This document shows, in pieces, positions 12,234 through 32,397 of a DNA stretch of 64,000 nt; position 1 is the first letter of the stretch, and every line of letters starts with the position of its first letter. The notes below the pieces were generated by a model. The model had not been told where the DNA came from, searched no databases, and worked only from the letters and a program-made list of their open reading frames with translations. The position numbers and the translations under genes are program-made. Source of the stretch: Thermomicrobiales bacterium (GTDB lineage Bacteria > Chloroflexota > Chloroflexia > Thermomicrobiales > UBA6265); contig JBDHWC010000004.1 of the NCBI GenBank assembly GCA_039809985.1, forward strand, positions 1,405 through 65,404, read 5' to 3'.

Positions 12234-12959
12234 ATGCGCACCTATCACGATCAGCTGCTTAACGCCGTGGTGGCCGAGCGCCGCCGGATGACGCGTCGCT
12301 CGCTCCTCTCCCGCACCGTGACCCTCGCCGGCGGGGCGGCGGCCGTCGCGCTCCTCGCCCCGAACGGGCGGGCGTTCGCCCAGGACGCCACGCCCGACGG
12401 GATGACGGGCGGCGACATGATGGGGACGCCCGCCGCGGAGATGGGCGGGATGATGGCGTCGCCGTTCAAGGACGACCTCGAGGTCCTCAACTACGCCCTG
12501 ACGCTGGAGCATCTTGAGTACGCGTTCTACCGGGACGGGGTCGGCCGGTTCGAGTTCGGCAAGGACACCTTCGGGCTCTCGATCGACAAGAACCTGGCGG
12601 CGATCCGGGACCACGAGGGGGCGCACGTCAAGGCGCTGACGGACGTCATCGCCAGCCTGAACGGAACGCCGGTGGCCGAGGCGACGTACGACTTCGGGGA
12701 CGCCTACACCAACCCGAAGGCGTTCTTGGCGACCGCGGTCGCGCTGGAGGCGACGGGGGTCAAGGCCTACGACGGCGCAGCCCAGTACCTCGCCGACCGC
12801 GACCTGCTGACCGCCGCCGGCTCGATCGTGGCGATCGAGGCCCGCCACAGTTCGTACCTGAACCAGATCACCGGCGCGTCGCCCTTCCCCGGCCCGTTCG
12901 AGTCGACGCTGCCGCCGGACGAGGTGCTGAAGATCGCCGGTCCCTTCTTCGTCCAATAG
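12234..12959 (+). CDS. Ferritin-like domain protein (Ferritin_2-type), Tat-exported
   Basis: It has the Tat signal 'RRSLLSRTVTLAGGAAAVALLAPNGRAFA' and the motifs 'LNYALTLEHLEYAFYRDG' and 'IVAIEARHSSYL'. Confidence 0.75.
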   Translation: MRTYHDQLLNAVVAERRRMTRRSLLSRTVTLAGGAAAVALLAPNGRAFAQDATPDGMTGGDMMGTPAAEMGGMMASPFKDDLEVLNYALTLEHLEYAFYRDGVGRFEFGKDTFGLSIDKNLAAIRDHEGAHVKALTDVIASLNGTPVAEATYDFGDAYTNPKAFLATAVALEATGVKAYDGAAQYLADRDLLTAAGSIVAIEARHSSYLNQITGASPFPGPFESTLPPDEVLKIAGPFFVQ

Positions 12960-13015: not shown

Positions 13016-13546
13016 ATGACCGTTCGCGCGCAGACGATGATGATGTCCAACCCGGCCGACGTGCTCAACTACGCGCTGACGCTCGAGCATCTGGAGTACG
13101 CCTTCTACCGCGACGGGCTCGCCCGGTTCCCGGTCGAGACGTTCCGCGCCGCCGGCTTCGCCGCCCTGGTCCACGAGATGGTGGCGACGATCCGAGACGA
13201 CGAGAAGGCGCACGTCGACGCGCTGACCGCGGTGGTCACCCAGCTCGGTGGCACGCCAGTCGAGGAAGCGGAGTACGACTTCGGCTACGACGACCTCGCT
13301 GGGTTCCTAGCGACGGCGATGGCGCTGGAGAACACGGGGGTCAGCGCCTACCAAGGCGCCGCCGGCGACCTGATCGACCATGACGACCTGCTGACCGCGG
13401 CCCTGACGATCCACGGGGTCGAGGCCCGGCACGCCGCCTATCTCAACGCCCTGAACGGGACGTCGCCCTTCCCGGACGCGGTGAACCCGACACTGACCCC
13501 GGACGAAGTGCTGAAGATCGCGGGGCCGTTCGTCAAGGCGTCGTAG
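13016..13546 (+). CDS. Ferritin-like domain protein, paralog without a signal peptide
   Basis: It carries the same motifs, 'LNYALTLEHLEYAFYRDG' and 'IHGVEARHAAYL', and the same C-terminus 'DEVLKIAGPF' as the upstream gene. Confidence 0.75.
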   Translation: MTVRAQTMMMSNPADVLNYALTLEHLEYAFYRDGLARFPVETFRAAGFAALVHEMVATIRDDEKAHVDALTAVVTQLGGTPVEEAEYDFGYDDLAGFLATAMALENTGVSAYQGAAGDLIDHDDLLTAALTIHGVEARHAAYLNALNGTSPFPDAVNPTLTPDEVLKIAGPFVKAS

Positions 13547-13659: not shown

Positions 13660-14178
13660 TCAGGGGCGCTGGCGGACCATCCAGCGGTGCGGGATGTCGC
13701 GGACCTTGTACGGCTCGCCGGCGGGGACGAAGCCGAGCCGTCGGTAGAGTCCCTCGGCGTGCTGCTGCGCGGCGAGCACGACGCTCGGCGCGCGCCGCTC
13801 GTCGGCGTGGCGGAGCAGGTCGCGGACGAGCGCGGTGGCGATGCCGCGGCCGCGCGCTTCCGGCAGGGTGGCCACCCACGCGATCAGCGCCTCGCCGCGG
13901 GTGCCGAAGCTGAGGGTGACGCGGCCGGTGGCGACGGCGGTGCGAGTTGGGCCGCCCGGTCCCGGCTCGACCGCGACCGCGAGCAGGACGAGGCTGCGCT
14001 GGTCGTCCGGGTCGAGCACCTGCGTCTCGACGATCCCCTGCTCCTCGGCGAAGACGCGTCGCCGGATCTCCAGCACCGACCGGTAGGCCGGTCCGTCGAC
14101 GGCGCGGACGATCTCGATCCGCGGCAGGGCGGCGGCGAGCGAGTGGCCCTCGGTGGCGGGAACGTGGCCGGCGGTCAT
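13660..14178 (-). CDS. GNAT family N-acetyltransferase
   Basis: Only the last 172 aa of the 1879-aa track ORF are real. The motif 'VATLPEARGRGIATALV...AEGLYRRLGF' is present. The ATG at 14178 overlaps the argH stop as ATGA. Confidence 0.85.
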   Translation of the reverse strand: MTAGHVPATEGHSLAAALPRIEIVRAVDGPAYRSVLEIRRRVFAEEQGIVETQVLDPDDQRSLVLLAVAVEPGPGGPTRTAVATGRVTLSFGTRGEALIAWVATLPEARGRGIATALVRDLLRHADERRAPSVVLAAQQHAEGLYRRLGFVPAGEPYKVRDIPHRWMVRQRP

Positions 14179-15644
14179 GGTTCGTCCTGGCGCGGCGGGG
14201 TGAGCAGGCGTTCGCGGGCGGCGCGCTGGCCCGCCACCCAAGCCGCCTCCTCGGCAATCTGGGCGCGGGCGTTGGCGAGGGCCTGGGCGACCCGGCCCGG
14301 GGCGGTGCCGCCGAGGATGTCGCGGGCGCTCACGCTCTCCAACGCGCTGAGCGGCGGCCGGGTCTCGGCGAAAACGGGGTGGACCTCGGCCCACTCGGCG
14401 TCGGAGAGGTCGGCGAACTCCTTCCCCTCGGCAATGCAGCGGGCAACGAGACGGGCAACGGTCTCGTGCGCCTCGCGGAAGGCGACGCCGTTGCGGGCCA
14501 GCAGGTCCGCGGCGTCGGTCGCCAGCGAGAAGCCGCCGACGGCCGCCTCGGCCAGTCGCTCGGTGTTGAAGCGGGCGGTGCGGAGCATCGGCGGGAAGAC
14601 GTCGAGGATGGCGAGGGTGGTGTCGACCGCGTCGAAGAGGTTCTCCTTGTCCTCCTGGAAATCCTTGTTGTAGGTGAGGGGCAGGCCCTTGGCGACGGTC
14701 AGCATCCCGACCAGGTGGCCGTAGACGCGGCCGGTCTTGCCCCGGGCGAGCTCGGCGACGTCCGGGTTCTTCTTCTGCGGCATGATCGAGCTGCCGGTGC
14801 TGAACGTGTCGGAGAGTTCGACGAAGCGGAACTCGCCGGTGGACCAGAGGATGATCTCCTCGCTCAGGCGGGAGAGGTGCATGGCGATCAGGGCGCAGGC
14901 GAAGAGGGTGTCGAGCACGTAGTCGCGGTCGCCGACGGCGTCGAGGCTGTTGCCGCTGATCTCGCCGAAGCCGAGGTCGGCGGCGGTCATCGCCCGGTCG
15001 ATCGGGAAGGTGGTGCCCGCAAGCGCCCCGGCCCCGAGCGGCGAGACGTCGGTGCGGCGGTGGGCGTCGAGCAGGCGGTCGAGGTCGCGCAGCAGCATCT
15101 CGACGTAGGCGTGGAGGTGGTGGGCGAGGAGGACCGGCTGGGCCCGCTGGAGGTGGGTGTAGCCGGGCATCACCGTGCCCGGGTGCGCCTCGGCGACGTC
15201 GAGCAGCGCCTCGACCAGTTCGATCACGCCGGCCATCAGGGAGACGATGGCGTCCTTGGTCCAGAGCCGGTAGTCGGTGGCCGTCTGGTCGTTGCGACTG
15301 CGCCCGGTGTGGAGCTTGCGGCCGACGTCGCCGACGATCTCGCGCAGGCGGCGCTCGACGGCGGTGTGGATGTCCTCGTCGCTGATCGAGACGGCGAACG
15401 CGTCGGCGTTGACCTCGTCGAGGATCTGCCAGAGGCCCCGCTCGAGCGTGGCGGCCTCCTCCGGCGCGACGATCCCTTGGTGTCCGAGCATCCGGACGTG
15501 GGCGACCGAGCCGCGGATGTCCTCGCGGGCCATCCGGCGGTCGAACATGATCGAGGCGTTGAACGCCTCGAGGCGCGCGTCGGGCGGCGTGTCGAACCGC
15601 CCCGCCCAGAGTTTCGCGCTCCCCGCCCCGGTGCCGCCCGCCAT
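14175..15644 (-). CDS. argH: Argininosuccinate lyase
   Basis: The start is ATG 15644 ('MAGGTGAGSAKLWAGRFD'). Motifs seen are 'GYTHLQRAQP' and 'GSSIMPQKKNPD', the fumarate-lyase signature. Confidence 0.95.
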   Translation of the reverse strand: MAGGTGAGSAKLWAGRFDTPPDARLEAFNASIMFDRRMAREDIRGSVAHVRMLGHQGIVAPEEAATLERGLWQILDEVNADAFAVSISDEDIHTAVERRLREIVGDVGRKLHTGRSRNDQTATDYRLWTKDAIVSLMAGVIELVEALLDVAEAHPGTVMPGYTHLQRAQPVLLAHHLHAYVEMLLRDLDRLLDAHRRTDVSPLGAGALAGTTFPIDRAMTAADLGFGEISGNSLDAVGDRDYVLDTLFACALIAMHLSRLSEEIILWSTGEFRFVELSDTFSTGSSIMPQKKNPDVAELARGKTGRVYGHLVGMLTVAKGLPLTYNKDFQEDKENLFDAVDTTLAILDVFPPMLRTARFNTERLAEAAVGGFSLATDAADLLARNGVAFREAHETVARLVARCIAEGKEFADLSDAEWAEVHPVFAETRPPLSALESVSARDILGGTAPGRVAQALANARAQIAEEAAWVAGQRAARERLLTPPRQDEP

Positions 15645-17897: not shown

Positions 17898-17903
17898 TAT
17901 ACT
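17898..17903 (+). promoter_or_regulatory. Candidate -10 box (TATACT) for the nurA operon
   Basis: The only AT-rich hexamer in the 84-nt gap lies 41 nt upstream of the nurA ATG. The -35 is weak. Confidence 0.35.
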
Positions 17904-17943
17904 GAACGCATGTTCTGCGAGTGAACCGGCGCGGGAGGGGGCG

Positions 17944-19026
17944 ATGGCTGGCCACGACGGGAACTTCGCGCAGACGGTGACCCGAATTCAGCGCGACCTC
18001 GACCGGCTCGGGGTGCGGCAGGTCGACATGCGCCGCGCGCCCGCGCTGGAACTGCAGTACGCGGGCGGAATGGACCTCGGCACGGCACCGACCGGGCGCG
18101 GCAACGTCGGCGTCGAACCACTGGAGGGGCCGATCGAGGCGCGGAAGGTGCCGCCGCGCGATGGCGAAACGGGCATCCGGGCCTTCCTCGACGGGGCGCA
18201 ACGGACCTTGCCCGCGTTCCGGGTCGGCCTCGCCCCCGTCGTCGTCACGGTCGCCGCCGCCGCCATTCTGGAGCGGGACGAGCGCGGGGAGTGCCGGGTG
18301 CGGGCGGGGACGCTGCGGCTGGCGCGGGCGTGGCTGGTGCCGCACCTTCCCGGCAGCGCTGAGGTTGCCGCGCTCGTCGACCACCTGCACGCGAGCGGGG
18401 CGACCGTCGTCGACACCCTGACGGTCCGCGGCCCGGCGGCCTCGGACTCGGATGACCAGCCCGGCTTGGCCAAGGCCGACTACGGCCGGCTGACGGAACT
18501 CGCCTACATCGCCGCGCGGCAAGTGCGCGACGACCTCGAGCAACGACTGCTGGGCGAGTGGGAGGCGGGTCAGGCCGGAGACCCGGACGAGTGGATCGTG
18601 GTCGACGGCCGGCTGAAGCGCGAAGCGCCACGGGCGATCGGGCTCGTCAAGCAGTTCACGGAGACGCACTTGGACGGGGCTCAGGCCGAGATGCTGCTTG
18701 ACTTGCCGGAGGGGTACCGGACCACGGCGTTCCACCCGACCGACCGTCGGCGTGGCGGCGACCAGCCGGAGGCGCGGAGCCTCTGGTACCTCCGCCTCTG
18801 GAACTCTGAAGGGTTCGACGCCCGGCACGCCCTGGTCCGGCTGGAGACGCACCAGTCGGTGACCCGAACCGAGGAGATCGACCGCATCTCCTCGTGGGTG
18901 CTGTACGAGCGGACCCCGCGCGCAACCAGTGACGACCGGTGGGCGGTGCTGCTCTACCCGATTCACTTGCTGGAGCGCGCCTTGAAGCAACGGGTGGAGG
19001 CGGAGTGCCGGGGCTGGCCGACATGA
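17944..19026 (+). CDS. nurA: NurA-like 5'-3' nuclease domain protein
   Basis: The start is ATG 17944, preceded by GGGAGGGGG. NurA-like acidic motifs are 'IRAFLDGAQR' and 'WIVVDGRLKRE', with a C-terminal 'LLYPIHLLERALK'. It lies directly upstream of a HerA-type ATPase. Confidence 0.65.
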   Translation: MAGHDGNFAQTVTRIQRDLDRLGVRQVDMRRAPALELQYAGGMDLGTAPTGRGNVGVEPLEGPIEARKVPPRDGETGIRAFLDGAQRTLPAFRVGLAPVVVTVAAAAILERDERGECRVRAGTLRLARAWLVPHLPGSAEVAALVDHLHASGATVVDTLTVRGPAASDSDDQPGLAKADYGRLTELAYIAARQVRDDLEQRLLGEWEAGQAGDPDEWIVVDGRLKREAPRAIGLVKQFTETHLDGAQAEMLLDLPEGYRTTAFHPTDRRRGGDQPEARSLWYLRLWNSEGFDARHALVRLETHQSVTRTEEIDRISSWVLYERTPRATSDDRWAVLLYPIHLLERALKQRVEAECRGWPT

Positions 19027-19078
19027 CGACGACCTTCCGGATGAGCGGACACCGGACGCGAGCGCGGTGGAGCGGACG

Positions 19079-21214
19079 ATGACGATCACGGCGGAGACCC
19101 CGGAGGTTCTCGGCGGGGGGGAGCCGGACGATTGGAACGAGGGCGATTCGCTGGCGGGGCACCCGCGCTTCCGGGACCTCGTCGACCGCGCCACCGGGCC
19201 GGTCGGGCGGGTGGTCGGCAGCGAGAAGGAGCCGGCCGGCGGCCACGCCTTCGCGATCTGGGTGACCGAGGAGGCGCGCTCGCTCGACACGGGCCACATC
19301 GTGGTCGCCTTCAGCGAGGAGGCGGCCGTGATCGGCGTGCTGGACGAGGCCCGCCGCTTCTCCGACCTGAAGAGTTTCCTCGACGACTACTTCGACCGGA
19401 TGGGAGAGGAGGAGCCGGCGAGCACGGTCCACGCCAGCGCCCGGCCGGAGATCCTCGTCTACACGGTCAGCGTGCTGGCGACGAAGCACCTGCGGGACGA
19501 CGTCGACTCGCAACGGCCCCCCGTCGGTGGCCCGGTCTGGTTCGCGACCGAGGCGGCGCTCGACTACGCGCTCGGGGTGAGCGAGTTCTCGGGCGTCAAG
19601 ATCCCCGTCCTGATGCACACCAACGGGAACGCCAAGCGCGGCGACGATGGGGAGCCGCTGCGCGACGCGGCGGGGAACGTCCGCTTCCAACAGTCGCCGA
19701 TCTACCTCGACTCCGACTACCTGCTCGGGCCGGAGGCGGGCCACGCCAACTGGACCGGGCAGTCGGGCCTCGCGACGAAGACGAGCCACGCCCTCTTCCT
19801 CACCGCTGCCGCCTTCCAGACGATGCGGCGGGCCGCGAAGCCGAAGAGCGTGGCGGCGCTGATGTTCAACGTGAAGGGTGCCGACCTGCTCTGGCTCGAC
19901 AAGCCGGTGGTGCCCCCGGAGGGGATGGACGAGGCGTACGCCGCCGCCGACGTGCGAGGACTCTCGGCCGACGACCTCGAGGCCTACGCGGCGCTCGGCT
20001 TGGACCCGGTGCCGTTCGACAAGCTCCGCATTTTCGCGCCGTTCACCGCCGGCAGCCTGCCGAACGGGGCAACTGTGAGCCTGAGCCAGACGAACGCCGC
20101 CGGCGTGCTGGACACCCAGCGGTCGCGCGAGTCGGAGGCGACCGGGGTGGTTTTCCCGATCGCGTGGGAACTGGGTCGCCTGCTGGCGATGCCGCACCGC
20201 GTGTTCGAGTACGGCGACCTCGACGACAAGATGTTCGGCTTCATCGCCGAGCTGCGGGCGATGCAGGTCACCACCGTCAAGCAGTTCGAGGCGAAAATCG
20301 ACGAGATTCTGGCGTGGTTCAACGCCCCGGAGAACGCGGCGGCGGCGCGCGACGGCTGGGAAGGTCACAACAAGATGACCATCCTGAAGGCGCGCAACCG
20401 CATCCAAGGGCTCGTCGCGAAGTTCGGCGGCCTGCTGGCCGAGGGCAACGTGGCCCAAGGGTCCGTGCCGCTCGTCGACGGCCCGTTCGAGGACCAGGAG
20501 GTCCGGGTCGTCGACATCGCGGGCTGCAACTCGAACGTGCAGGAGGTGCTCGTCTCCTCGGTGGTCACCTCGCTCTGGCGGCTCGCGGAGCAGAAGAAGC
20601 TCGGCGTCGACAAGGTGATCGTCTTCGTCGACGAACTCAACAAGTACGCGCCGGGCGGCAGCGAGAGCGCCCTGCGCGACACGCTGGTCGACATCGCCGC
20701 CCGCGGCCGGCACCTGAACGTGGTGCTGTTCGGGGCCCAGCAGTTCCGGTCGAAGGTCGACGACGAGATCCTCGGCAACTGCGGCACGTCGCTCTACGGA
20801 CGAGTGGGGGACGAGGAGATCGTCAACAGCGCCTACCGTTCGCTGACCGAGGGGACGAAGCAGGAACTGCTCGGCCTGAAGAAGGGACGGCTGCTGGTCC
20901 GGCACGCCCACTTCCGGACGCCGCTGTTCGGCCGCTTCCCGCGCCGCGCCTGCCTCGACGGCATTCAGGGAGTCGAGATCTTCAACCTGGCCACCACGAA
21001 CGGGCCGCGGGAGGCGGACGGGCTCTGGCGGGCGCTGAAGGCGAAGATGGGCGACCGCGCGCCGTCGCTGCGGGACGTGCGCGCTGCCGCCGACGGCTTT
21101 GATCGGCGCGACTTGGAAAAGATCATCGGCCAAGTGCAGAACATGGCCTTCGCCCCGCCGCGTTCCGACCCCTGGCGCACCGCGCAGCGACTGCTCTCGG
21201 AGTACCGCTCGTGA
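19079..21214 (+). CDS. herA: HerA/FtsK-superfamily (DUF87-like) hexameric ATPase
   Basis: The N-terminus looks like a HAS barrel ('GRVVGSEKE..HAFAIWV...GHIVVAF'). Walker B is 'VIVFVDELNKYAP', followed by 'ARGRHLNVVLFGAQQ'. Walker A is atypical ('GQSGLATKTS'). GTG 19067 is an alternative start. Confidence 0.7.
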   Translation: MTITAETPEVLGGGEPDDWNEGDSLAGHPRFRDLVDRATGPVGRVVGSEKEPAGGHAFAIWVTEEARSLDTGHIVVAFSEEAAVIGVLDEARRFSDLKSFLDDYFDRMGEEEPASTVHASARPEILVYTVSVLATKHLRDDVDSQRPPVGGPVWFATEAALDYALGVSEFSGVKIPVLMHTNGNAKRGDDGEPLRDAAGNVRFQQSPIYLDSDYLLGPEAGHANWTGQSGLATKTSHALFLTAAAFQTMRRAAKPKSVAALMFNVKGADLLWLDKPVVPPEGMDEAYAAADVRGLSADDLEAYAALGLDPVPFDKLRIFAPFTAGSLPNGATVSLSQTNAAGVLDTQRSRESEATGVVFPIAWELGRLLAMPHRVFEYGDLDDKMFGFIAELRAMQVTTVKQFEAKIDEILAWFNAPENAAAARDGWEGHNKMTILKARNRIQGLVAKFGGLLAEGNVAQGSVPLVDGPFEDQEVRVVDIAGCNSNVQEVLVSSVVTSLWRLAEQKKLGVDKVIVFVDELNKYAPGGSESALRDTLVDIAARGRHLNVVLFGAQQFRSKVDDEILGNCGTSLYGRVGDEEIVNSAYRSLTEGTKQELLGLKKGRLLVRHAHFRTPLFGRFPRRACLDGIQGVEIFNLATTNGPREADGLWRALKAKMGDRAPSLRDVRAAADGFDRRDLEKIIGQVQNMAFAPPRSDPWRTAQRLLSEYRS

Positions 21215-22395
21215 GCGAGTCGATCCGTCTTGCCCATCTGGCAGACACCCACCTCGGGTACCGCGGTCCCGGGGGGGTCGACGCCTTCGGTCGCAACCAG
21301 CGGCTCGTCGACGTCGAGCGGGCGTTCGAGGCCGCGCTGGCCGCGATCATCGACGAGCGACCCGACCTCGTGCTCCACGCCGGCGACCTGTTCCACCACA
21401 CCCGGCCGACGTGGGACACGGTCGGGCACGTGGTCCGCCAACTGCGCCGGCTCGAGGCCGCGGGCATTGCCTGCTTGGTGATCGCCGGCAACCACGACAC
21501 GCCCCGCCTGCGGACCAGCAGCTCCGTCTTTTCCCTGCTGCGGGAGATCGTGCCGGGGGTTCGCTTCGTCACCGGCTACGAGAAGGAGGAGGTCCGGTAC
21601 GACGACCTCGGCCTCGTCGTCCACGCCATTCCCCACGGCGCGCTGACCGACCACGACGAGCCGACCCCGGCCTACCGGCGCGAGCAGCGCAACGTGATCG
21701 TCACCCACGGCCTCGCGCCGCGGGTCCAGTTGCGCGGTCCGCACGAGCCGGGCGAGGAACGGTTGCCGGAGAACCTGCTCGACCCCGACTTCGACTACAT
21801 CGCCCTCGGCCACTTCCACGAGTGGGGCGACCAAGGGCGCAACGCGTGGTACAGCGGCAGCACCGAACGGTTCGGCTGGGGCGACCTGCCGGCCGAGCCG
21901 GGGTGGAACCTCGTCACCCTCGGGCCGCCGGGGGCCGCGTCGGTGGTCGAGCACCGGCCGGTGCCGGCGCGGCCGATGGCGCGCATCCGCGACCTCGCGG
22001 TCGGCGAACGGACGGCGCAGGAGATCGTCGACGAGGTGCTGGCGCAGCTCGAGGCGCTGGGCGACCCGGCGGCGATGGTCAGGGTCGAGGTGGTCGGGGC
22101 GGCGCGCCCGGTTCGCCGCGAGGCGGCGGCCCTGCTCGCCCAGCAGGTCGGCGGGCGGGTCTGGCACGTCGACCTCGTGGCCCCGGGCGACCCGGTGATC
22201 GGCCGCTACGACGGCGACCACGAGGCGGTGACCGACGTTCGGGTGATGTTCGGCCAGTTCGTCGATGACCGGGTGCGGGAGCGCGTCTACGGCGACGACT
22301 TCGCCGCGCGCTTCCGCGAGCGCGGGATGCGGGCGCTCGACGAGGCGATGGAGGCGGCGCGAGAGGCGACCGTCGATGAGGAAGGCGCAGCGTGA
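21211..22395 (+). CDS. mre11: Mre11/SbcD-family metallophosphoesterase nuclease
   Basis: Motifs seen are 'LAHLADTHLG', 'VLHAGDLFH', 'LVIAGNHD', 'VTHG' and 'ALGHFH'. The start overlaps the herA stop as GTGA. Confidence 0.85.
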   Translation: MSESIRLAHLADTHLGYRGPGGVDAFGRNQRLVDVERAFEAALAAIIDERPDLVLHAGDLFHHTRPTWDTVGHVVRQLRRLEAAGIACLVIAGNHDTPRLRTSSSVFSLLREIVPGVRFVTGYEKEEVRYDDLGLVVHAIPHGALTDHDEPTPAYRREQRNVIVTHGLAPRVQLRGPHEPGEERLPENLLDPDFDYIALGHFHEWGDQGRNAWYSGSTERFGWGDLPAEPGWNLVTLGPPGAASVVEHRPVPARPMARIRDLAVGERTAQEIVDEVLAQLEALGDPAAMVRVEVVGAARPVRREAAALLAQQVGGRVWHVDLVAPGDPVIGRYDGDHEAVTDVRVMFGQFVDDRVRERVYGDDFAARFRERGMRALDEAMEAAREATVDEEGAA

Positions 22396-25229
22396 TCCTC
22401 CTCTCGCTCGAACTGGAGAACTACCGGCAGTACCGAGCCGAGCGGATCGAGTTCCCGGAGCGGGGGATCGTCGGCGTCGTCGGCGCGAACGGGGTCGGCA
22501 AGACGACGCTGTTCGAGGCGATCGAGTGGGCGCTCTACGCGCCGCGGGAGATTCCCAGTCCCGAGGTGTCCCCGCGCGGCGTCCCCGGCAAGACGAAGGT
22601 GACGCTCCGGCTCTTCGACCCGCGGGACGGGGCGACGTGGGTGGTCGAGCGCGGGCTGAGCCGGTCCGGCATCAAGCAGGGCGAGGTCTATCGGGAGGAC
22701 AACCCGAGTCTGCCGGTCGTGCAGGGCACGTCGGCGGTCACCGCGTTCGTCTCCGGGAGACTGATCGGCCTGTCGCGGGCCGCGTTCATTTCGACCTTCT
22801 TCACCCGGCAGAAGGAACTCGGCTTCTTCGGCGCGATAGGCGCGACCGACCGGCGGCGCGAGGTGTCGCGTCTGCTCGGTCTGGAGGTGATCCGGTCAGC
22901 CCAGTCGCGCGTCGGCGAGGAGCGGAACGCGAAGGACCAGGACGCGCGCGGCCTCGGCGCGCAGGTGGACCGGATGGCCGCCGAGCGCGACTTCGCGGCC
23001 GAGAGCGAAGCCGCGGAGCGGCGCGTCGCCGCGGCCTCTGCCGAGCGCGATGCCGCGTTGGTCGCCCAGCAGGCGGCGGTCGCGCAGCTCGACGCCGTGC
23101 GCGAGCAGTTGTCGGTGTTGCGGCAGCGCGAGAAGGTCGACCACCAGTTCCGCCTCGCCCTCTCCGTGGTCGACGGCAAGATCGCCAAGTCTCAGGCGCA
23201 ACACGACGCCGCGATGGGGCAGATCACCGAGATCGACCGACGAGCCGAGGAACTGCGGCGGCTCGAGCCGGTCGCGGCGGGCGAAGCCGCCCTTGCCACG
23301 GAGTTGCGTGGGCATGAGCGCGAGAGTGAACGCCACCGCCAAGCCGAACGGCTGAGACGGGAAGGGGACGCCGCGCGAGATCGGGTGGCTTCCGGCACCG
23401 CCGCGGTGCGGAAGATTGTCGGTGGCTTGCCGGCGGCAGCGTTGGTCGCGGGTTGGCAATGGCAGGCCGTGGACGAGACGGATCCGATGGCCGCGGTCGA
23501 ACGACTGGCCCGGGTCAGTGAGCGGGTCAGCCCCGGGCCGGCGGTTCGCCTAGCGCAGGCTGCGACGGAGAGCGTGGCACTCGCGTCGCGCCGCGACGCG
23601 GCCAAGACGCGTCGCGACCGGTGCGAGGAACTGTACGCACAGCTCGAAGAGGAGCGGCTGAACCTGCTGGCCGGAGACGACTTGGCTGGGTTGACGGCGC
23701 AGCACCGCGAAGCACTCGAGCGAGCTCAGGGCATCGTCACCGCGGCGAGAGCCAATCTGAGCCGGACGACTGCCGATCTCGACAAGATCGAACGGCTGCG
23801 GGACCGCCTGCGGGCGCAGCGGCTCGACGAGCCGTGTCCGACCTGCGGTCGCCCGTTCGACGCGTCGGACCTGGCCCTCACGGTCGATGCCCTCGCAGCA
23901 CAGGCGGATGCCATCAGCGCGGAAATCGCCAAGTTCCGCGCCGAGGCAGAGAAAGGCCATGCCGAGGTCGTTCGCCGGCAGGAGCGGATCCGGGAACTTG
24001 AGGCGCGCGCCGTTCGCGTCCGCGTGCTCGATGAGCGACTGGCGGCCGGGCGCGTGGAGGTCGCCAAAGCGGTCGAGGCGCTTCACGACAGCGAGGCGGC
24101 TCTGGCGGCATGTCTCGAAGGAGCCGGGTTCGAGAGCCTTCCGGACGCCGCCGAGCAGGCTCGGCTCGCCGACGAGGCCGCGCTGCTAGAGCAGGTGCGG
24201 GCGGCACACGACGTGCTTGCGGCCCGGGGCGAGGAGGTCGGGCGCGCGGTCCGGGACCGAGTCGAGGCCGCCGCCGCGATCGAGGCGCTCGGGCCCGTTT
24301 CGTACGACGCGGCGGCGCACCACGCGACGGTGCGGGCGCACGATGCCGCTCGTGATGCGGTCACCAAGATGTCCCTCATCGCGCAGGAGGTCGCCAAGCG
24401 GCCCGTCTGGGAGAGGCAGGCGACCGAGGCGAGCGCGAACTTGACCGACCTCGCGGCGGAGCGTGGCCGGGTCGCCGTGGCGCGTGCTGCCAACGGGCAC
24501 GATCCGGCGAAGCTTGCCGAGGCTGACGTCGAGGAGGCCCGACTCCATCGCGAGGCACAGGAGCGCAGCCGCCACCGCCACGTCGCCGAAAGCATGCTGG
24601 CCGAGGCGGTCAGCGCGGTGCAGCGGCTGCGCGAGGAGCACGACCGGTTCGCCCGCGACCGCGAGCAGGCGGTGGTCCTCCGGCGCGAGGCGGACGAACT
24701 CAGTCGGATGTACAGCGAGTTCGACGCGTTCGAGCGCTACGTCGCCGGCCAGCTCGGACCGCGGATCGCCGACACCGCCGGGGAGCTGATCGAGCGGATC
24801 ACCAGCGGCAAGTACGCGAAGGTCGACCTCGACGAGAATTACGGGGTGCGCGTCTTCGACGGCGAGGAGGCGTTCCCGATCGAGCAGTTCTCCGGCGGCG
24901 AAAAGGACGTCTTCGCGCTCGCGGCCCGACTGGCGCTCTCGCGGGTGGTCGGGGGGCAGGCGCTGAACCGGCCCCGCTTCCTCGTGCTCGACGAGGTGTT
25001 CGGCGCGCTTGACCAAGAGCGACGGCGACAGGTGCTCGACGTTCTCTGCCGCCTGACGCAGGAGAGCGAGGACTTTCGCCAGTTGTTCATCGTCAGCCAC
25101 GTCGAGGATGTCGTGGAGTCGGAGATGATGGACCAGATCTGGCGCGTCACCGAGCAGGACGGCGCGAGCCGGGTCGAGGTCTCGGTGCGCAACGAACTGG
25201 CGGAGCGGGCGGCACTGGTCGGTGCCTGA
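22392..25229 (+). CDS. rad50: Rad50/SbcC-family SMC-like ATPase with a zinc hook
   Basis: Walker A is 'GANGVGKTT'. A long coiled coil follows, with the CPTC hook at 23835-23846. The signature is 'FSGGEKDVFALAARLAL', Walker B is 'FLVLDEVFGALD' and the H-loop is 'IVSHV'. The start overlaps the mre11 stop as GTGA. Confidence 0.9.
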   Translation: MILLSLELENYRQYRAERIEFPERGIVGVVGANGVGKTTLFEAIEWALYAPREIPSPEVSPRGVPGKTKVTLRLFDPRDGATWVVERGLSRSGIKQGEVYREDNPSLPVVQGTSAVTAFVSGRLIGLSRAAFISTFFTRQKELGFFGAIGATDRRREVSRLLGLEVIRSAQSRVGEERNAKDQDARGLGAQVDRMAAERDFAAESEAAERRVAAASAERDAALVAQQAAVAQLDAVREQLSVLRQREKVDHQFRLALSVVDGKIAKSQAQHDAAMGQITEIDRRAEELRRLEPVAAGEAALATELRGHERESERHRQAERLRREGDAARDRVASGTAAVRKIVGGLPAAALVAGWQWQAVDETDPMAAVERLARVSERVSPGPAVRLAQAATESVALASRRDAAKTRRDRCEELYAQLEEERLNLLAGDDLAGLTAQHREALERAQGIVTAARANLSRTTADLDKIERLRDRLRAQRLDEPCPTCGRPFDASDLALTVDALAAQADAISAEIAKFRAEAEKGHAEVVRRQERIRELEARAVRVRVLDERLAAGRVEVAKAVEALHDSEAALAACLEGAGFESLPDAAEQARLADEAALLEQVRAAHDVLAARGEEVGRAVRDRVEAAAAIEALGPVSYDAAAHHATVRAHDAARDAVTKMSLIAQEVAKRPVWERQATEASANLTDLAAERGRVAVARAANGHDPAKLAEADVEEARLHREAQERSRHRHVAESMLAEAVSAVQRLREEHDRFARDREQAVVLRREADELSRMYSEFDAFERYVAGQLGPRIADTAGELIERITSGKYAKVDLDENYGVRVFDGEEAFPIEQFSGGEKDVFALAARLALSRVVGGQALNRPRFLVLDEVFGALDQERRRQVLDVLCRLTQESEDFRQLFIVSHVEDVVESEMMDQIWRVTEQDGASRVEVSVRNELAERAALVGA

Positions 25230-25250
25230 GGCGGCGGACGGGGGAACGAC

Positions 25251-25661
25251 ATGACCGGCGAGCAGGGTCCCGGCGCAGGGGGCGATGGTCGGTTCGTCTG
25301 GCACCCGGTCCACGCCGGCAAGAGCGCGGCCGAGGTGGGGGCCGAGATCCGGGACGAACTGGCCAGCGACCAGCGGCAGTACGCGCTGGCGCTCGAGGGG
25401 GCCGAGGGGCACGAGAACAGCGCGCTCCGCTCCGTCATCGAGCTCGACCGGAAGTGGAGTGACTACGACATGGGCTGGGCCGAGGCGGATCCCGACGAGC
25501 TGGCGGCGCGGGTGCTCGCGTTCGAGCAGGAACGCGAGCGTCGGCAGCAGATGATCCCCTACGCGGACTATCGCGAGGCGCACCGCCCGCCGGCGCCGGC
25601 CGTGCCTTCCGGCTCGGTGGTCGACCGGCTGCTGGGCCTGTTCCGCGGCCGAGGGGACTGA
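25251..25661 (+). CDS. Hypothetical acidic 136-aa protein, fifth gene of the nurA-rad50 operon
   Basis: The ATG lies 21 nt after the rad50 stop, with GGGGGAA upstream. Third-position GC is strong and the composition is protein-like. I recognise no motif. Confidence 0.55.
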   Translation: MTGEQGPGAGGDGRFVWHPVHAGKSAAEVGAEIRDELASDQRQYALALEGAEGHENSALRSVIELDRKWSDYDMGWAEADPDELAARVLAFEQERERRQQMIPYADYREAHRPPAPAVPSGSVVDRLLGLFRGRGD

Positions 25662-25679
25662 CCCGAGGTCAGTCCCCTC
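25651..25679. terminator. Bidirectional terminator hairpin embedding both convergent stop codons
   Basis: GAGGGGACTGAC-CCGAG-GTCAGTCCCCTC forms a perfect 12-bp stem. TGA 25659-61 (+) and TCA 25669-71 (-) both lie inside the arms. Confidence 0.6.
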
Positions 25680-26454: not shown

Positions 26455-26484
26455 CTTGACACGAATCGTATCAAGAACTATCAT
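26455..26484 (+). promoter_or_regulatory. Sigma-70-type promoter overlapped by a HAIR-like (HspR) inverted repeat
   Basis: The -35 TTGACA (26456-61) and the -10 TATCAT (26479-84) are separated by 17 nt. The inverted repeat CTTGACA-N7-TATCAAG (26455-26475) compares with the HAIR consensus CTTGAGT-N7-ACTCAAG. Confidence 0.55.
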
Positions 26485-26511: not shown

Positions 26512-26880
26512 GTGGTGGGTCGCCAGGGCGAGCCGGTCTTCGTCATCAGCGTCGCGGCGCGGTTGCTGGAGATGCACCCGCAGACGCTACGGAAATACGA
26601 GCGCGAGGGGCTGATCCTGCCGTCGCGCACGGACGGCAACCTGCGGCTCTACTCCGACCGGGACATTGAGCGGCTGCGCCAGGTGAAGTACCTGGTTGAG
26701 GAGTGCGGCCTCAACCTCGCCGGCGTCCAGCTCGCGTTGCAGCTGACCAACCGGGTGCGCGCCCTGCGCGAGTCGTTGCCGGGCGAGCGGGGGGCCGTCG
26801 GCATCAGCGCCGAGGCGGTCTCCGCCGAGCTCGGCACGGTGTTGGCGATGCTCGGCGTGCGCGAGGAGAACGAACGGTAG
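26512..26880 (+). CDS. hspR: MerR-family heat-shock repressor HspR-like
   Basis: It contains '[46 protein letters not shown]' (MerR HTH) and lies directly upstream of clpB. Confidence 0.8.
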
Positions 26881-27016
26881 CGCGCGCCGCGCCGTCCCCG
26901 TTCGCCTCGCTCTGAGGCCGAGCGCGGGGGCACGTTGCTTGCCGACGGCCCAATCGGCGCGGACGGCCCTCGTGGCAGCGGACCAGCAAGACCATCGAGA
27001 GAGGGGAGGGGTGCCG

Positions 27017-29623
<2,607 letters not shown>

Positions 29624-30134: not shown

Positions 30135-30420
30135 CCGCCGCACCGGAATCGCAGTGCGACCCGCGTCGTCCTGGACGGCGAGCGGCTGCCTGCGCCGGTT
30201 GCGCGGTCGACATCTCCTGTTGCCCCTTGTGCCCGGAGGCCCGTTCGACGCCGGTCGGCGTGCGGCCACCGTCGACCCCGGCGGGCGGCCGTCCCGCGTC
30301 GGGCAGGGTGCGGAAGGGCGCGTGGTACAGTCTCGGGACCGCCGTTCGCGGCGACCGATCCAGACCGCCGGACGTACCGGCCACGCAGTGAACGACGGCG
30401 ACGGCTGCCGTCCGGGGGTG

Positions 30421-32397
30421 ATGGCGATGCAGGCATTCTCGCTGCCCGCGAAGCGCAGCCTTGGCACCTCGCCCCGGCGCGGGGCGATGCCCGCAATCCT
30501 CAGGTTCGGCCTCGTGCTGATGCTGCTGCCGACGACGCTGCTCGCGCCGCGGGCGGATGCCCAAGGCACGAGGACGGCCACCACCGCCGCGGCCGCGCCG
30601 GTCGACAGCCTGGCCTACATCGAGATCCCGCTGGACGAGCGGTCGGAGCAGTGGCAACTCGGCCGCGCCCTGATCGACCGGGCCGGATTCGGCCCGCTGC
30701 TGGACCAGGCGCTGGCGGAGGGCCTGACCGACGAGCACGGGAACCGACTCCCGCTCGACGCCGTCCTCGGCGGCGAGGCCGGGGTGGTCCTCAGCACGTC
30801 GCTCCTCTCGCAGGCGGCGGCCGAGACCGGCCTGAGCACCGACCTGAGCGATCTCTCCAGCCTGCTCGGCACGCCGGAGGCCGCCTCGGGCCGAGCGTCG
30901 GGCGCCCAGGGCTTCGCAGTCGTTCTCGACGCCCGCGCCCCGGACACCGCGTTCGCCGCGGTCACGGCGGTCGTCGGCGACCGGGCTGCCGAGAACGGCA
31001 CGACGGTGCAGACGACCGACCACGCCGGGGTGACCATCACCTCTGCCGCCGGCGGCAGCGGCGACGGGATGGCCGTCGCCCGCGTCGGCGACCACGTGCT
31101 GCTCGCTTCCGACCCGGCCGACCTCGCGGGGCCGATCGAGGCCGCGACGGGCACCACGCCGTCCTTGGCCGACGCCGCGCCGTTCCAGAAGGCGCGGCAG
31201 GTGCTGGGCGGCGACGACCTGCTCTTCGCCTTCGTCAACGGGCCGGCGGCGGCTCGGGCGGAAGGCGCGCTGGGCGCGCTTGGGCCGGCGGGCGGCACCT
31301 TGCTGCACACGGAGCGGTACTCCGCGCTGCAAGTCAAGGCCGACCAGCCAGGGCTCCGCATCGAAACGGTCGCGATGTCGGCCGACGGCACCCCGATCGC
31401 CGACGCGGCCGCGCCCTACGTTTCGGCGTTGGCCAGCAAGGCCCCCGGCGACGCGGCGCTCTTCCTGAGCGGCATGGACCTCGGCAAGACCGGTTTCCTC
31501 GACGCGCTCGGCGCGGTCGGGCTGCAGGTGATGCTCGGCACGAGCGGGCTCGGGCCGACCCCGGACGCGACCGCCGACCCGGCGGCCCAGATCGCCGCCC
31601 AGTATGCCGCGCTGGCCGGCCTGATCGGCTTCAACCCGCAGACCGACCTGATTCACCAGCTGAGCGGCGAGTACGGGCTCTGGCTGAGCGGGATGAGCGA
31701 CCCGTCCCAGCTCGGCATCCTCTTCGCGTCGGGCGTCAGCGACCCGGCGACCGTCGGCAACGTCCTCTCGCAGATCACGATTCTGGCCCAAGGGGGGGCC
31801 AGTTCGGAGGGCGGGGTGTCCACCCGACAAGTCGGCGACTCCAGCGTCACCACCGTGCCGACCGGCCCGGGCGGCCCGCCGCTGGAGTTCGGCCTAGTCG
31901 ACGGCCAGTTGGTCGTCGCCGCGGGGAGCGGCATCGACCAGTTCGTCGGCGGATCCAATCGGGCCAGCCTCGCCGACAACGCGCAGTACCAGGCCGTGAT
32001 GTCGGCGCTGCCGAGCGAGTCGAACGGTTCGCTCTACGCCGACCTGACCCAGCTCCTGCCGCTGGTCACACAGGCGGGGCAGTCGACGGCCAGCGACATC
32101 AGCGAATCGACGATCAAGGACGACAGCCCGGACTGCGCCAAGTTCTCCAGCCAGGAAGAGGCGCAGAAGGCGTACGACTCGCTGGCGGAAGGCACCTTCG
32201 ACCTCGACCGCAACTTCAACGGCATCGCCTGCGAGGACTTCTTCGCCGCTCCGGCGAGCGGTGGCAACGAGCCTGCGATGGCTGGCATCGAGGGGCTCGA
32301 CCTTTCGGCCTTGAAGGCGTTCGGCCTGGTGGCGTTCGACCAGGACGGTATGCGACGAACCTCGTCGATTCTCTACGTCGGAGAGCCCGGCTCCTGA
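30421..32397 (+). CDS. Secreted large protein (DUF3352-like) with a C-terminal Excalibur Ca-binding motif
   Basis: The signal peptide is 'MPAILRFGLVLMLLPTTLLAPRADAQG'. The C-terminus 'DCAKFSSQEEAQKAYD...DLDRNFNGIACEDFF' matches the Excalibur pattern. The start is uncertain between 30421 and the ATG of MPAILRF, about 66 nt downstream. Confidence 0.7.
   Translation: MAMQAFSLPAKRSLGTSPRRGAMPAILRFGLVLMLLPTTLLAPRADAQGTRTATTAAAAPVDSLAYIEIPLDERSEQWQLGRALIDRAGFGPLLDQALAEGLTDEHGNRLPLDAVLGGEAGVVLSTSLLSQAAAETGLSTDLSDLSSLLGTPEAASGRASGAQGFAVVLDARAPDTAFAAVTAVVGDRAAENGTTVQTTDHAGVTITSAAGGSGDGMAVARVGDHVLLASDPADLAGPIEAATGTTPSLADAAPFQKARQVLGGDDLLFAFVNGPAAARAEGALGALGPAGGTLLHTERYSALQVKADQPGLRIETVAMSADGTPIADAAAPYVSALASKAPGDAALFLSGMDLGKTGFLDALGAVGLQVMLGTSGLGPTPDATADPAAQIAAQYAALAGLIGFNPQTDLIHQLSGEYGLWLSGMSDPSQLGILFASGVSDPATVGNVLSQITILAQGGASSEGGVSTRQVGDSSVTTVPTGPGGPPLEFGLVDGQLVVAAGSGIDQFVGGSNRASLADNAQYQAVMSALPSESNGSLYADLTQLLPLVTQAGQSTASDISESTIKDDSPDCAKFSSQEEAQKAYDSLAEGTFDLDRNFNGIACEDFFAAPASGGNEPAMAGIEGLDLSALKAFGLVAFDQDGMRRTSSILYVGEPGS

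What the first reader, a model, noticed from the sequence alone, without database searches (positions are those of the whole stretch)
17898..25679. Archaeal-style nurA-herA-mre11-rad50 operon, plus an orphan fifth gene, in a bacterial genome
Seen in sequence:
- Five co-directional ORFs sit between a lone TATACT box and a bidirectional terminator.
- Junctions are 52 nt (nurA to herA), GTGA overlap (herA to mre11), GTGA overlap (mre11 to rad50) and 21 nt (rad50 to ORF5). This fits one translationally coupled unit.
- Motifs support each call: NurA-like DG motifs; a HerA HAS-barrel plus Walker B DELNKYAP; Mre11 DTHLG/GDLFH/GNHD; and Rad50 GANGVGKTT, CPTC hook, FSGGEK and DEVFGALD.

Established knowledge:
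- The herA-mre11-rad50-nurA operon is the hallmark DNA-end resection module of thermophilic archaea.
- Bacteria normally carry sbcCD alone, and the HerA-NurA pairs studied in Deinococcus-Thermus are not linked to Mre11/Rad50.
- HerA-type ATPases paired with nucleases or Sir2 have also been recruited into anti-phage systems.

Inference: this is either a horizontally acquired, complete RecBCD/AddAB-independent resection machine or a nuclease-ATPase defence-type module. The gene order differs from the archaeal one, and a fifth protein is attached.
Basis: partly seen in the sequence, partly recalled or inferred. Interest (0 to 1): 0.8.

Follow-up and report, generated by a model that had tools for sequence, protein, structure and literature searches.

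The report
Bacterial nurA-herA-mre11-rad50 DNA-break repair operon
This is a real, chromosomal four-gene operon for trimming broken DNA ends (NurA nuclease, HerA motor, Mre11 nuclease, Rad50 ATPase), carried at a fixed site by a whole bacterial order and probably switched on by DNA damage, so it is interesting but not a foreign or exotic element.

Summary

- **ORF1** has a NurA fold. It is invisible to Pfam but matches the Deinococcus and Thermotoga NurA structures.
- **ORF2** is a bacterial-type HerA, homologous end to end with D. radiodurans HerA.
- **ORF3/ORF4** are Mre11/Rad50. They score higher against archaeal models than against SbcCD models.

The "archaeal import or defence module" reading is not supported.
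- Base composition matches the rest of the window.
- The cluster sits beside argH at the same chromosomal site in most related Thermomicrobiales loci.
- Among loci with at least 5 kb downstream of herA, mre11+rad50 follow nurA-herA in 10/13 Chloroflexota, 17/19 Rubrobacter-group and 22/23 Gemmatimonadota loci.
- A nurA-herA-sbcD-sbcC layout was already noted in Oceanithermus (PMC5448004).

ORF5 is a small helical protein restricted to this lineage. It is unlinked to the operon in at least one related genome, so it is not a core part.

New here: the TATACT box is followed directly by GAACGCATGTTC, a LexA-type palindrome. Box and palindrome are conserved upstream of nurA in 18/19 related loci, which suggests SOS control.

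Verdict: new member of a known kind, with moderate interest.

The parts
17898..17903 (+). TATACT, candidate -10 promoter box of the operon
   Evidence: Read directly. A (c/g)TATACT lies 0-9 nt upstream of the palindrome in most of 19 related Chloroflexota loci. The generic sigma-70 scan did not flag it.
17904..17915 (.). GAACGCATGTTC palindrome (GAAC-N4-GTTC), candidate LexA/SOS operator
   Evidence: It is the only exact match in the 64-kb window.
- A GnAC-N4-GTTC lies 24-95 nt upstream of nurA in 18/19 related loci, against a 9% background. Exact matches are 5/19 against 0.46%.
- A second exact box in L003 lies upstream of a Y-family polymerase (IMS) gene.
- The motif equals the Firmicutes/Actinobacteria LexA box (PMC4234289, PMC3323433).
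17944..19026 (+). nurA: divergent bacterial-type NurA nuclease (360 aa)
   Evidence: - No Pfam or NCBIfam hit.
- The family profile hits D. radiodurans NurA 7f6d_H at E 4e-4.
- The AF2 model has pLDDT 85.
- Top Foldseek hits are 7f6d_G (2e-10), T. maritima TM1739 1zup (6e-8) and TdpB 8wfd_G.
- D83, D221 and H341 are invariant in 37 homologs.
19079..21214 (+). herA: bacterial-type HerA hexameric translocase (711 aa; an alternative GTG start lies at 19067)
   Evidence: - phmmer against D. radiodurans HerA 7f6d_B gives E 1e-34.
- The family profile matches it end to end, at E 1.6e-62.
- The P-loop, Walker B and RGR are invariant across three phyla.
- Public gene calls give 711 aa.
21211..22395 (+). 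mre11/sbcD-family nuclease (394 aa); its start overlaps the herA stop (GTGA)
   Evidence: - Pfam Metallophos, E 3e-14.
- The best NCBIfam models are archaeal Mre11, at 79 bits against 57 for sbcd; all are below cut-off.
- The best PDB matches are M. jannaschii and P. furiosus Mre11.
- All five phosphoesterase motifs are present.
22392..25229 (+). rad50/sbcC-family ATPase (945 aa) with a central CPTC zinc hook; its start overlaps the mre11 stop (GTGA)
   Evidence: - Pfam SMC_N, AAA_23 and SbcC_Walker_B.
- NCBIfam archaeal Rad50 models score 126 and 116 bits, against 49 for sbcc.
- The best PDB matches are M. jannaschii and P. furiosus Rad50.
25251..25661 (+). ORF5: small helical protein of unknown function, probably co-transcribed but not a core component
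   Evidence: - GC3 is 0.91.
- Only 18 homologs were found, and none has a Pfam domain.
- Ten of the 17 homologs carry a C-terminal hydrophobic helix that is absent here.
- The AF2 model has pLDDT 79, is helical, and has no PDB fold match.
- It is adjacent to rad50 only here and in L003. It is two genes away in L090 and unlinked in L087-89. L087 comes from the same assembly (JAICKJ01) as operon locus L015.
25651..25679 (.). Perfect 13-bp GC-rich hairpin shared by ORF5 and the convergent GDPD gene; candidate bidirectional terminator
   Evidence: Read directly. Folding energy is -46.5 kcal/mol, z = -5.2. It has no T-tract and was not flagged by the scan.

Best explanation
This is a native, vertically inherited chromosomal operon for processing DNA double-strand-break ends.

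**Proposed mechanism (inferred by homology):**
1. Mre11-Rad50 recognises, tethers and trims the break. Mre11 is a dimeric Mn-phosphoesterase. Rad50 is an ABC ATPase with a long coiled coil and a CPTC zinc hook.
2. A HerA hexamer then pumps the duplex into a NurA dimer sitting on its HAS-barrel face.
3. NurA degrades the 5' strand and leaves a 3' tail for RecA. This is the mechanism shown for D. radiodurans NurA-HerA.

**Expression (inferred):**
- The four genes are made from one transcript. It starts at a conserved TATACT promoter whose start region is covered by a GAAC-N4-GTTC palindrome.
- That palindrome is most likely a LexA operator, which would make the operon DNA-damage inducible.
- herA/mre11 and mre11/rad50 are translationally coupled by 4-nt overlaps.
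- ORF5 is a small lineage-specific gene that shares the transcript here but is not part of the machine.

**Shown here:** gene identities, gene order, conservation, and the promoter/operator footprint.

**Inferred only:** enzymatic activities, physical coupling of the two sub-complexes, LexA binding, and co-transcription.
For: **Identities**
- NurA by profile and fold.
- HerA by end-to-end homology to D. radiodurans HerA.
- Mre11 and Rad50 by domains, intact catalytic motifs and PDB matches.

**Tight packing**
- Junctions as read.

**Conservation**
- NurA lies directly upstream of HerA in 20/20 Chloroflexota, 20/21 Rubrobacter-group and 16/26 Gemmatimonadota loci.
- Mre11+Rad50 lie downstream on the same strand in 10/13, 17/19 and 22/23 loci.
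- Most Chloroflexota loci with held upstream flank have argH upstream of nurA.
- Pairwise-identity matrices of the four proteins correlate at r = 0.84-0.95.

**Native composition and housekeeping flanks**
-.

**Regulation**
- The only GAAC-N4-GTTC in the window abuts the TATACT box.
- Box and palindrome are conserved in 18/19 related loci, against a 9% background.
- The same palindrome precedes an IMS-family (Y-family polymerase) gene in L003. I recall such genes as typical SOS regulon members.
- GAAC-N4-GTTC is the LexA box of Firmicutes and Actinobacteria.

**Mechanism template**
- The D. radiodurans NurA-HerA structure and biochemistry (PMC9960219).
Against: - There is no experimental evidence for this clade.
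- In D. radiodurans and Thermus, nurA/herA deletions give only modest or controversial repair phenotypes (PMC9960219).
- NurA and HerA miss the Pfam and NCBIfam thresholds. Mre11 and Rad50 miss every NCBIfam equivalog cut-off.
- Three of 13 Chloroflexota loci lack mre11-rad50 downstream. In Rubrobacter and Gemmatimonadota, up to 4.8 kb can separate herA from mre11. Physical coupling of the two halves is therefore not obligatory.
- The LexA assignment rests on motif identity and one supporting gene. Many related sites are GCAC or GTAC rather than GAAC.
- No lexA or recA promoter from this lineage could be examined.
Confidence: 0.72

Rival explanations
1. Two independent systems are merely neighbours or co-regulated. 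NurA-HerA would act on its own (for example in cell proliferation, fork processing or DNA transfer, as discussed for Deinococcus and Thermus). Mre11-Rad50 would be the organism's ordinary SbcCD.
For: - Three of 13 Chloroflexota loci keep nurA-herA, with the same TATACT box and palindrome, but have no mre11-rad50 within 8 kb.
- Gaps of 0.2-4.8 kb with inserted genes occur in Rubrobacter and Gemmatimonadota.
- D. radiodurans and Thermus have nurA-herA unlinked to sbcCD.
Against: - Linkage on the same strand and in the same order holds in 49 of 55 loci from three phyla.
- The window has 4-nt start/stop overlaps at herA/mre11 and mre11/rad50.
- Archaeal Mre11 is reported to interact with HerA (citing Quaiser 2008).
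Confidence: 0.15
2. It is an anti-phage or anti-plasmid defence module: a HerA-type ATPase with a nuclease, plus an SMC-like ATPase with a phosphoesterase, that destroys invading DNA.
For: - PADLOC gives partial hits: HerA to mad8 (1e-7) and defence HerA models (7e-6); Rad50 to mad3 (1e-36) and LmuB (3e-28).
- The NurA model also resembles TdpB of the TdpAB system.
- Blackwood et al. speculated that HerA-NurA could destroy foreign DNA.
Against: - The hits cover only generic ATPase cores.
- NurA, ORF5 and Mre11 have no meaningful PADLOC match.
- The chromosomal site next to argH is fixed across an order, which is unlike defence islands.
- The flanks are housekeeping genes.
- Only distant relatives occur on plasmids or phages.
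- An SOS-type operator sits at the promoter.
Confidence: 0.07
3. It is a recent horizontal import of the complete archaeal herA-mre11-rad50-nurA operon.
For: Mre11 and Rad50 score better against archaeal than bacterial models and structures.
Against: - HerA and NurA are of the bacterial type. There is no archaeal HerA hit at E<=0.01, and the best NurA matches are D. radiodurans and T. maritima.
- GC and GC3 equal the genome background.
- The cluster is syntenic across the order and present in three bacterial phyla with congruent divergence.
- An ancient transfer of mre11-rad50 cannot be excluded.
Confidence: 0.04

Closest known systems
Deinococcus radiodurans NurA-HerA complex (PDB 7F6D; PMC9960219)
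   Same: - NurA fold (Foldseek E 2e-10).
- HerA is homologous over its full length (E 1.6e-62), including the unusual P-loop SG(L/V)ATKTS and Walker B DELNKYAP.
- nurA lies upstream of herA.
- Presumed 2:6 nuclease-translocase that resects the 5' strand.
   Different: - In D. radiodurans the pair is not next to sbcCD.
- NurA identity is only about 20%, and Pfam and NCBIfam miss it.
- HerA here is about 90 residues longer.
- A LexA-type box sits at the promoter; the Deinococcus promoter was not examined here.
Oceanithermus profundus nurA-hepA-sbcD-sbcC cluster (noted in PMC5448004)
   Same: Same gene order in a bacterium: nurA, herA, then Mre11/SbcD- and Rad50/SbcC-family genes. The authors read it as an archaeal-like DSB repair architecture.
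   Different: - It is a different phylum and was only mentioned, not characterised.
- Breadth across Chloroflexota, Rubrobacter and Gemmatimonadota was not mentioned in that paper, and neither was an SOS box.
Archaeal herA-mre11-rad50-nurA operon (Sulfolobus, Pyrococcus)
   Same: Same four protein families in one operon. Mre11 and Rad50 here score best against the archaeal proteins. The operon is damage-inducible in Sulfolobus.
   Different: - The gene order differs (nurA first here).
- NurA and HerA are of the divergent bacterial lineage, reported as less than 20% identical to the archaeal ones (PMC9960219).
- According to that paper, bacterial NurA has a pin-like motif and a different dimer mode.
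Bacterial SbcCD (E. coli, S. aureus)
   Same: Same superfamily and presumably the same end-processing chemistry. The nuclease gene precedes the ATPase gene with overlapping stop and start.
   Different: - The E. coli SbcD match is much weaker (54 bits against 113 for M. jannaschii Mre11).
- The TIGR00619 sbcd cut-off is not reached (56.7 against 77.65).
- Here the pair is coupled to nurA-herA.

Membership tests
   No Pfam or NCBIfam family at E<=0.01. None of the 120 listed homologs carries a Pfam domain.
NurA nuclease | RNase H-like NurA fold and similarity to solved NurA structures | tested here: met
   The AF2 model has pLDDT 85. Top Foldseek hits are D. radiodurans NurA (2e-10) and T. maritima TM1739 (6e-8). 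The family profile hits 7f6d_H at E 4e-4.
NurA nuclease | Conserved acidic and His catalytic residues (DG motifs) | tested here: met
   D83-G84, D221-G222 and H341 are invariant in 37 sequences. D221-G222 aligns with the QDG of D. radiodurans NurA. The full catalytic set was not mapped residue by residue.
NurA nuclease | Encoded next to herA | tested here: met
   NurA lies directly upstream of herA in the window and in 56 of 67 loci with enough upstream sequence, across the three main groups.
NurA nuclease | Mn-dependent 5'-3' nuclease activity stimulated by HerA | not testable with these tools
   Needs biochemistry.
HerA translocase (FtsK-HerA superfamily) | Match to curated models (Pfam HerA/DUF87, HAS-barrel; NCBIfam helicase_HerA) | tested here: not met
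   No Pfam hit. NF040819 scores 15 bits against a cut-off of 970. Only 3 of 17 family members weakly hit HAS-barrel.
HerA translocase (FtsK-HerA superfamily) | Full-length homology to a structurally characterised HerA | tested here: met
   The family profile matches D. radiodurans HerA residues 11-602 at E 1.6e-62. The single sequence gives E 1e-34.
HerA translocase (FtsK-HerA superfamily) | P-loop, Walker B and arginine finger intact | tested here: met
   GQSGLATKTS, VFVDELNKYAP and ARGRH are invariant across three phyla. Equating ARGRH (RGR) with the arginine finger is my assumption and was not tested.
Mre11/SbcD nuclease | Calcineurin-like phosphoesterase domain with motifs I-V | tested here: met
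   Metallophos at E 3e-14, above cut-off. DTHLG, GDLFH, GNHD, THG and GHFH are present.
Mre11/SbcD nuclease | Reaches a curated equivalog or subfamily cut-off (archaeal Mre11 or bacterial SbcD) | tested here: not met
   The best score is 79 bits against cut-offs of 500-600 (archaeal). sbcd scores 56.7 against 77.65. It is a separate clade of the superfamily.
Rad50/SbcC ATPase | Split ABC head (Walker A, Q-loop, signature, Walker B, H-loop) with a central CxxC zinc hook | tested here: met
   Motifs lie at residues 31, 138, 833, 864 and 902, and CPTC at 482 of 945. Pfam SMC_N, AAA_23 and SbcC_Walker_B are above cut-off. The coiled coil itself was not computed.
Rad50/SbcC ATPase | Reaches a curated equivalog cut-off | tested here: not met
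   The best score is 126 bits against a cut-off of 700 (archaeal Rad50). sbcc scores 49 against 478.
LexA (SOS) regulon | GAAC-N4-GTTC operator at the promoter, conserved in orthologous promoters | tested here: met
LexA (SOS) regulon | Same motif upstream of lexA/recA in the same lineage, and LexA binding | tested here: inconclusive
   No lexA or recA is present in any held sequence. The only support is a box upstream of an IMS-family polymerase gene in L003.
Known anti-phage systems (PADLOC: MADS, Lamassu, HerA-based) | Full-length matches to the system's components, and co-occurrence of its other genes | tested here: not met
   Only partial ATPase-core matches were found. There was no match for NurA or ORF5, and no partner defence genes in the flanks.

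The most novel reading that the evidence does not exclude
In Thermomicrobiales, and in similar form in Rubrobacter and Gemmatimonadota, Mre11-Rad50 and NurA-HerA form one four-component end-resection machine. In Thermomicrobiales it would be LexA-controlled. It would be the main route to recombinogenic 3' tails, possibly in place of RecBCD/AddAB/AdnAB, and would contribute to DNA-damage tolerance. As I recall, many members of these groups tolerate desiccation or radiation well. This would make the functional coupling of MR with HerA-NurA a shared bacterial and archaeal feature rather than an archaeal hallmark. It would also give a clear physiological role to bacterial NurA-HerA, which is still disputed.
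Probability: 0.3. Interest if true: 0.6.

Novelty: new member of a known kind. Interest (0 to 1): 0.4.

Why it matters
- The role of bacterial NurA-HerA is unsettled. Knock-outs in Deinococcus and Thermus give weak or contradictory phenotypes (PMC9960219).
- Here the pair is linked to Mre11-Rad50 in about 90% of the loci that could be assessed (49 of 55) across three phyla.
- In Thermomicrobiales it also lies behind a conserved SOS-type operator.
- Together this is comparative evidence for a double-strand-break repair role and points to better model organisms for testing it.
- The NurA and HerA of this clade go unrecognised in the sources searched: the named NurA homologs are labelled "hypothetical protein", and neither protein has a Pfam hit. 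The profiles built here could improve annotation.
- None of this changes the known picture of how these enzymes work.

Tried and rejected
- **Pfam, NCBIfam and single-sequence PDB searches for ORF1 gave nothing.** A family profile and a structure model were needed to identify it.
- **ORF5 stays unknown.** It has no Pfam, NCBIfam or PADLOC hit and no fold match. It was rejected as a conserved fifth subunit after a profile scan of all loci and neighbourhood look-ups.
- **Other candidate "fifth genes" are clade-specific neighbours, not a shared component.** A GNAT acetyltransferase follows rad50 in Gemmatimonadota, and an HhH-GPD-like gene follows it in four Rubrobacter-group loci.
- **The generic promoter/terminator scan found neither the TATACT box nor the hairpin.**
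- **Literature searches found no description of this cluster.** They combined HerA/NurA with Actinobacteria, Rubrobacter, Gemmatimonad and Chloroflexi. The only prior note was the Oceanithermus remark.
- **Two relevant papers are not held:** Constantinesco 2004 and Iyer 2004.
- **A search for lexA and recA in all held sequence found none,** so the LexA motif could not be calibrated.
- **The exact Rad50 product could not be traced to its 77-kb NCBI contig,** so the source organism was not identified beyond its closest relatives being Thermomicrobiales.
- **No recBCD/addAB or second sbcCD turned up among the window genes scanned with Pfam.** Absence from the genome cannot be judged.
Full report
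**1. What is there**

The window is about 72% G+C throughout. A GC3 filter picks five consecutive + strand genes between 17.9 and 25.7 kb, with GC3 of 0.87-0.94, like their neighbours.

Public gene callers give products of 360, 711, 394 and 945 aa. This puts the nurA start at ATG 17944, behind a GGGAGGGGG Shine-Dalgarno sequence, and the herA start at ATG 19079.

- 52 nt between nurA and herA
- a GTGA overlap at 21211-21214
- a GTGA overlap at 22392-22395
- 21 nt between rad50 and ORF5

All quoted motifs are present, and their positions are listed.

**2. Identities**

ORF3 and ORF4 are clear.
- ORF3 has a Metallophos domain with motifs I-V.
- ORF4 has SMC_N, AAA_23 and SbcC_Walker_B, plus Walker A, Q-loop, signature, Walker B and H-loop. 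A CPTC hook lies at residue 482 of 945.
- Both score higher against archaeal models than against SbcCD models. Mre11 gives 79 bits against 57 for sbcd. Rad50 gives 126 bits against 49 for sbcc. No curated cut-off is reached.
- The PDB ranking agrees. For the Mre11 family profile: M. jannaschii 113 bits, P. furiosus 108, T. maritima 83, the 7dog SbcD 76, E. coli SbcD 54.
- All 13 orthologs taken from three phyla behave the same way.

ORF2 has no Pfam hit. It does match D. radiodurans HerA at E 1e-34. A 17-sequence family profile matches that protein from residue 11 to 602 at E 1.6e-62, and no archaeal HerA appears at E<=0.01.

ORF1 has no hit in Pfam, NCBIfam or PADLOC, or by single-sequence PDB search. 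Its named homologs are labelled "hypothetical protein" and none has a Pfam domain. Two further tests identify it.
- A 37-sequence profile hits D. radiodurans NurA at E 4e-4.
- An AlphaFold model (pLDDT 85) has D. radiodurans NurA, T. maritima TM1739 and TdpB as its only significant fold matches.

So the NurA and HerA calls are right. Both belong to the divergent bacterial lineage rather than the archaeal one.

**3. Context and conservation**

The flanks are ordinary.
- Upstream lie two ferritin-like genes, argH (divergent), an epimerase and a polysaccharide deacetylase.
- Downstream lie a convergent GDPD gene, MerR and ClpB.
- The rest of the window is metabolic or housekeeping.

A scan of species-representative genomes found at least 580 loci encoding HerA relatives. 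The best 80 are from Thermomicrobiales/Chloroflexota, Rubrobacteraceae and Gemmatimonadota, plus two Cyanobacteriota-related MAGs.

tblastn with the window proteins gives these results:

| Group | NurA directly upstream of HerA | Mre11+Rad50 downstream, same strand |
|---|---|---|
| Chloroflexota | 20/20 | 10/13 |
| Rubrobacter group | 20/21 | 17/19 |
| Gemmatimonadota | 16/26 | 22/23 |

- In Chloroflexota the genes are packed as tightly as in the window. Most of these loci with held upstream flank have argH upstream of nurA, as in the window.
- In the other two groups, up to 4.8 kb can separate herA from mre11.
- Pairwise-identity matrices of the four proteins correlate at r = 0.84-0.95 over 16 loci.
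- The HerA clade has only distant relatives (<33% identity) on plasmids and phages.

Together these results argue for a native, vertically inherited module. They argue against both a recent archaeal import and a mobile defence island.

**4. ORF5**

- It is a real gene: GC3 is 0.91, it has 18 homologs with invariant residues, and the model is helical with pLDDT 79.
- It has no family or fold match.
- Ten of the 17 homologs end in a hydrophobic helix that the window protein lacks.
- It follows rad50 only in the window's own species and in L003. It is two genes away in L090 and lies behind a malic-enzyme/acetyltransferase pair in L087-89.
- L087 is from assembly JAICKJ01, which carries the operon on another contig (L015).
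- It is therefore a passenger, not a fifth subunit.

**5. A conserved promoter and operator (new)**

This is the only GAAC-N4-GTTC in the 64 kb.
- In 18 of 19 Chloroflexota loci, a GnAC-N4-GTTC lies 24-95 nt upstream of nurA. The background is 9% per 210-nt window. Exact matches are 5/19 against 0.46%.
- A (c/g)TATACT sits 0-9 nt before the palindrome in most of these loci.
- GAAC-N4-GTTC is the LexA box of Firmicutes and Actinobacteria (PMC4234289, PMC3323433). From my own recollection it is also the box in Dehalococcoides (Chloroflexota).
- In L003 a second exact box lies about 80 nt upstream of an IMS-family (Y-family polymerase) gene. I recall such genes as typical SOS regulon members.
- I infer an SOS-repressed promoter. 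LexA binding itself is untested, and no lexA or recA promoter from this lineage was available.

**6. The 3' end**

- A perfect 13-bp hairpin (25651-25679) spans the stop codons of ORF5 and the convergent GDPD gene.
- Its folding energy is -46.5 kcal/mol, z = -5.2.
- It lacks a T-tract, so a terminator function is plausible but inferred.

**7. Prior knowledge**

- The bacterial NurA-HerA complex has been solved and characterised in D. radiodurans. Its biological role is described as controversial (PMC9960219).
- Blesa et al. noted that in Oceanithermus profundus sbcD and sbcC lie downstream of nurA-hepA, and read this as an archaeal-like repair architecture (PMC5448004).
- I found no paper describing the cluster in Chloroflexota, Rubrobacter or Gemmatimonadota, and none describing its SOS box.

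**8. Verdict**

- The [quoted passage not shown] interpretation is only partly supported.
- The best reading is a native double-strand-break end-resection operon, probably damage-inducible.
- It is a new, previously unannotated member of a known kind of system, and of moderate interest.

Noticed in passing
L030, L031 (Rubrobacter marinus, 14154-15113), L034, L043: In four Rubrobacter-group loci, the gene immediately after rad50 encodes a protein of about 320 aa. It has a weak HhH-GPD (base-excision glycosylase) match at E 5e-4, below the Pfam cut-off. This may be a second DNA-repair gene attached to the cluster.
   Followed up: partly
19 Gemmatimonadota loci, e.g. L061 13566-14504: A conserved GNAT acetyltransferase of about 312 aa follows rad50 in 19 loci. 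It may be functionally linked or may simply reflect clade synteny.
   Followed up: partly
L039 4271-4282 (Rubrobacteraceae MAG): The identical palindrome GAACGCATGTTC lies between herA and mre11, about 300 nt upstream of a PIN-domain gene inserted there.
   Followed up: partly
L004, L009, L011 (Thermomicrobiales/Chloroflexota): These loci keep nurA-herA. L004 and L009 also keep the TATACT box and palindrome, while L011 has no palindrome within one mismatch. None has mre11-rad50 within 8 kb downstream, so the operon has split or lost that half in some lineages.
   Followed up: no
L090 6570-7361: Near rad50 there is an extra short ABC-type ATPase (263 aa; AAA_21, AAA_15, SMC_N head motifs), directly upstream of the ORF5 homolog. 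The herA in this contig appears fragmented into two short ORFs.
   Followed up: no
window 26456-26484, 26512-26880, 26939-29623: A near-consensus sigma-70 promoter (TTGACA-17-TATCAT) precedes a MerR-family regulator, which is followed by ClpB. This looks like an HspR-type heat-shock arrangement.
   Followed up: no
window 38058-40205 (-): A 715-aa protein has a Schlafen/AlbA_2 domain only in its C-terminal half (E 1e-14). The rest of the protein has no annotation.
   Followed up: no
window 30154-32397 and 32435-34504 (+): Two large tandem paralogous DUF3352 proteins (747 and 689 aa) lie here.
   Followed up: no
window 55651-56520 (+) and 56517-57371 (-): An Fpg/Nei-type DNA glycosylase converges on a Sir2-family deacetylase, and their 3' ends overlap by 4 nt.
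   Followed up: no
window 12234-12959 and 13016-13546 (+): Two tandem Ferritin_2-domain genes lie upstream of argH.
   Followed up: no
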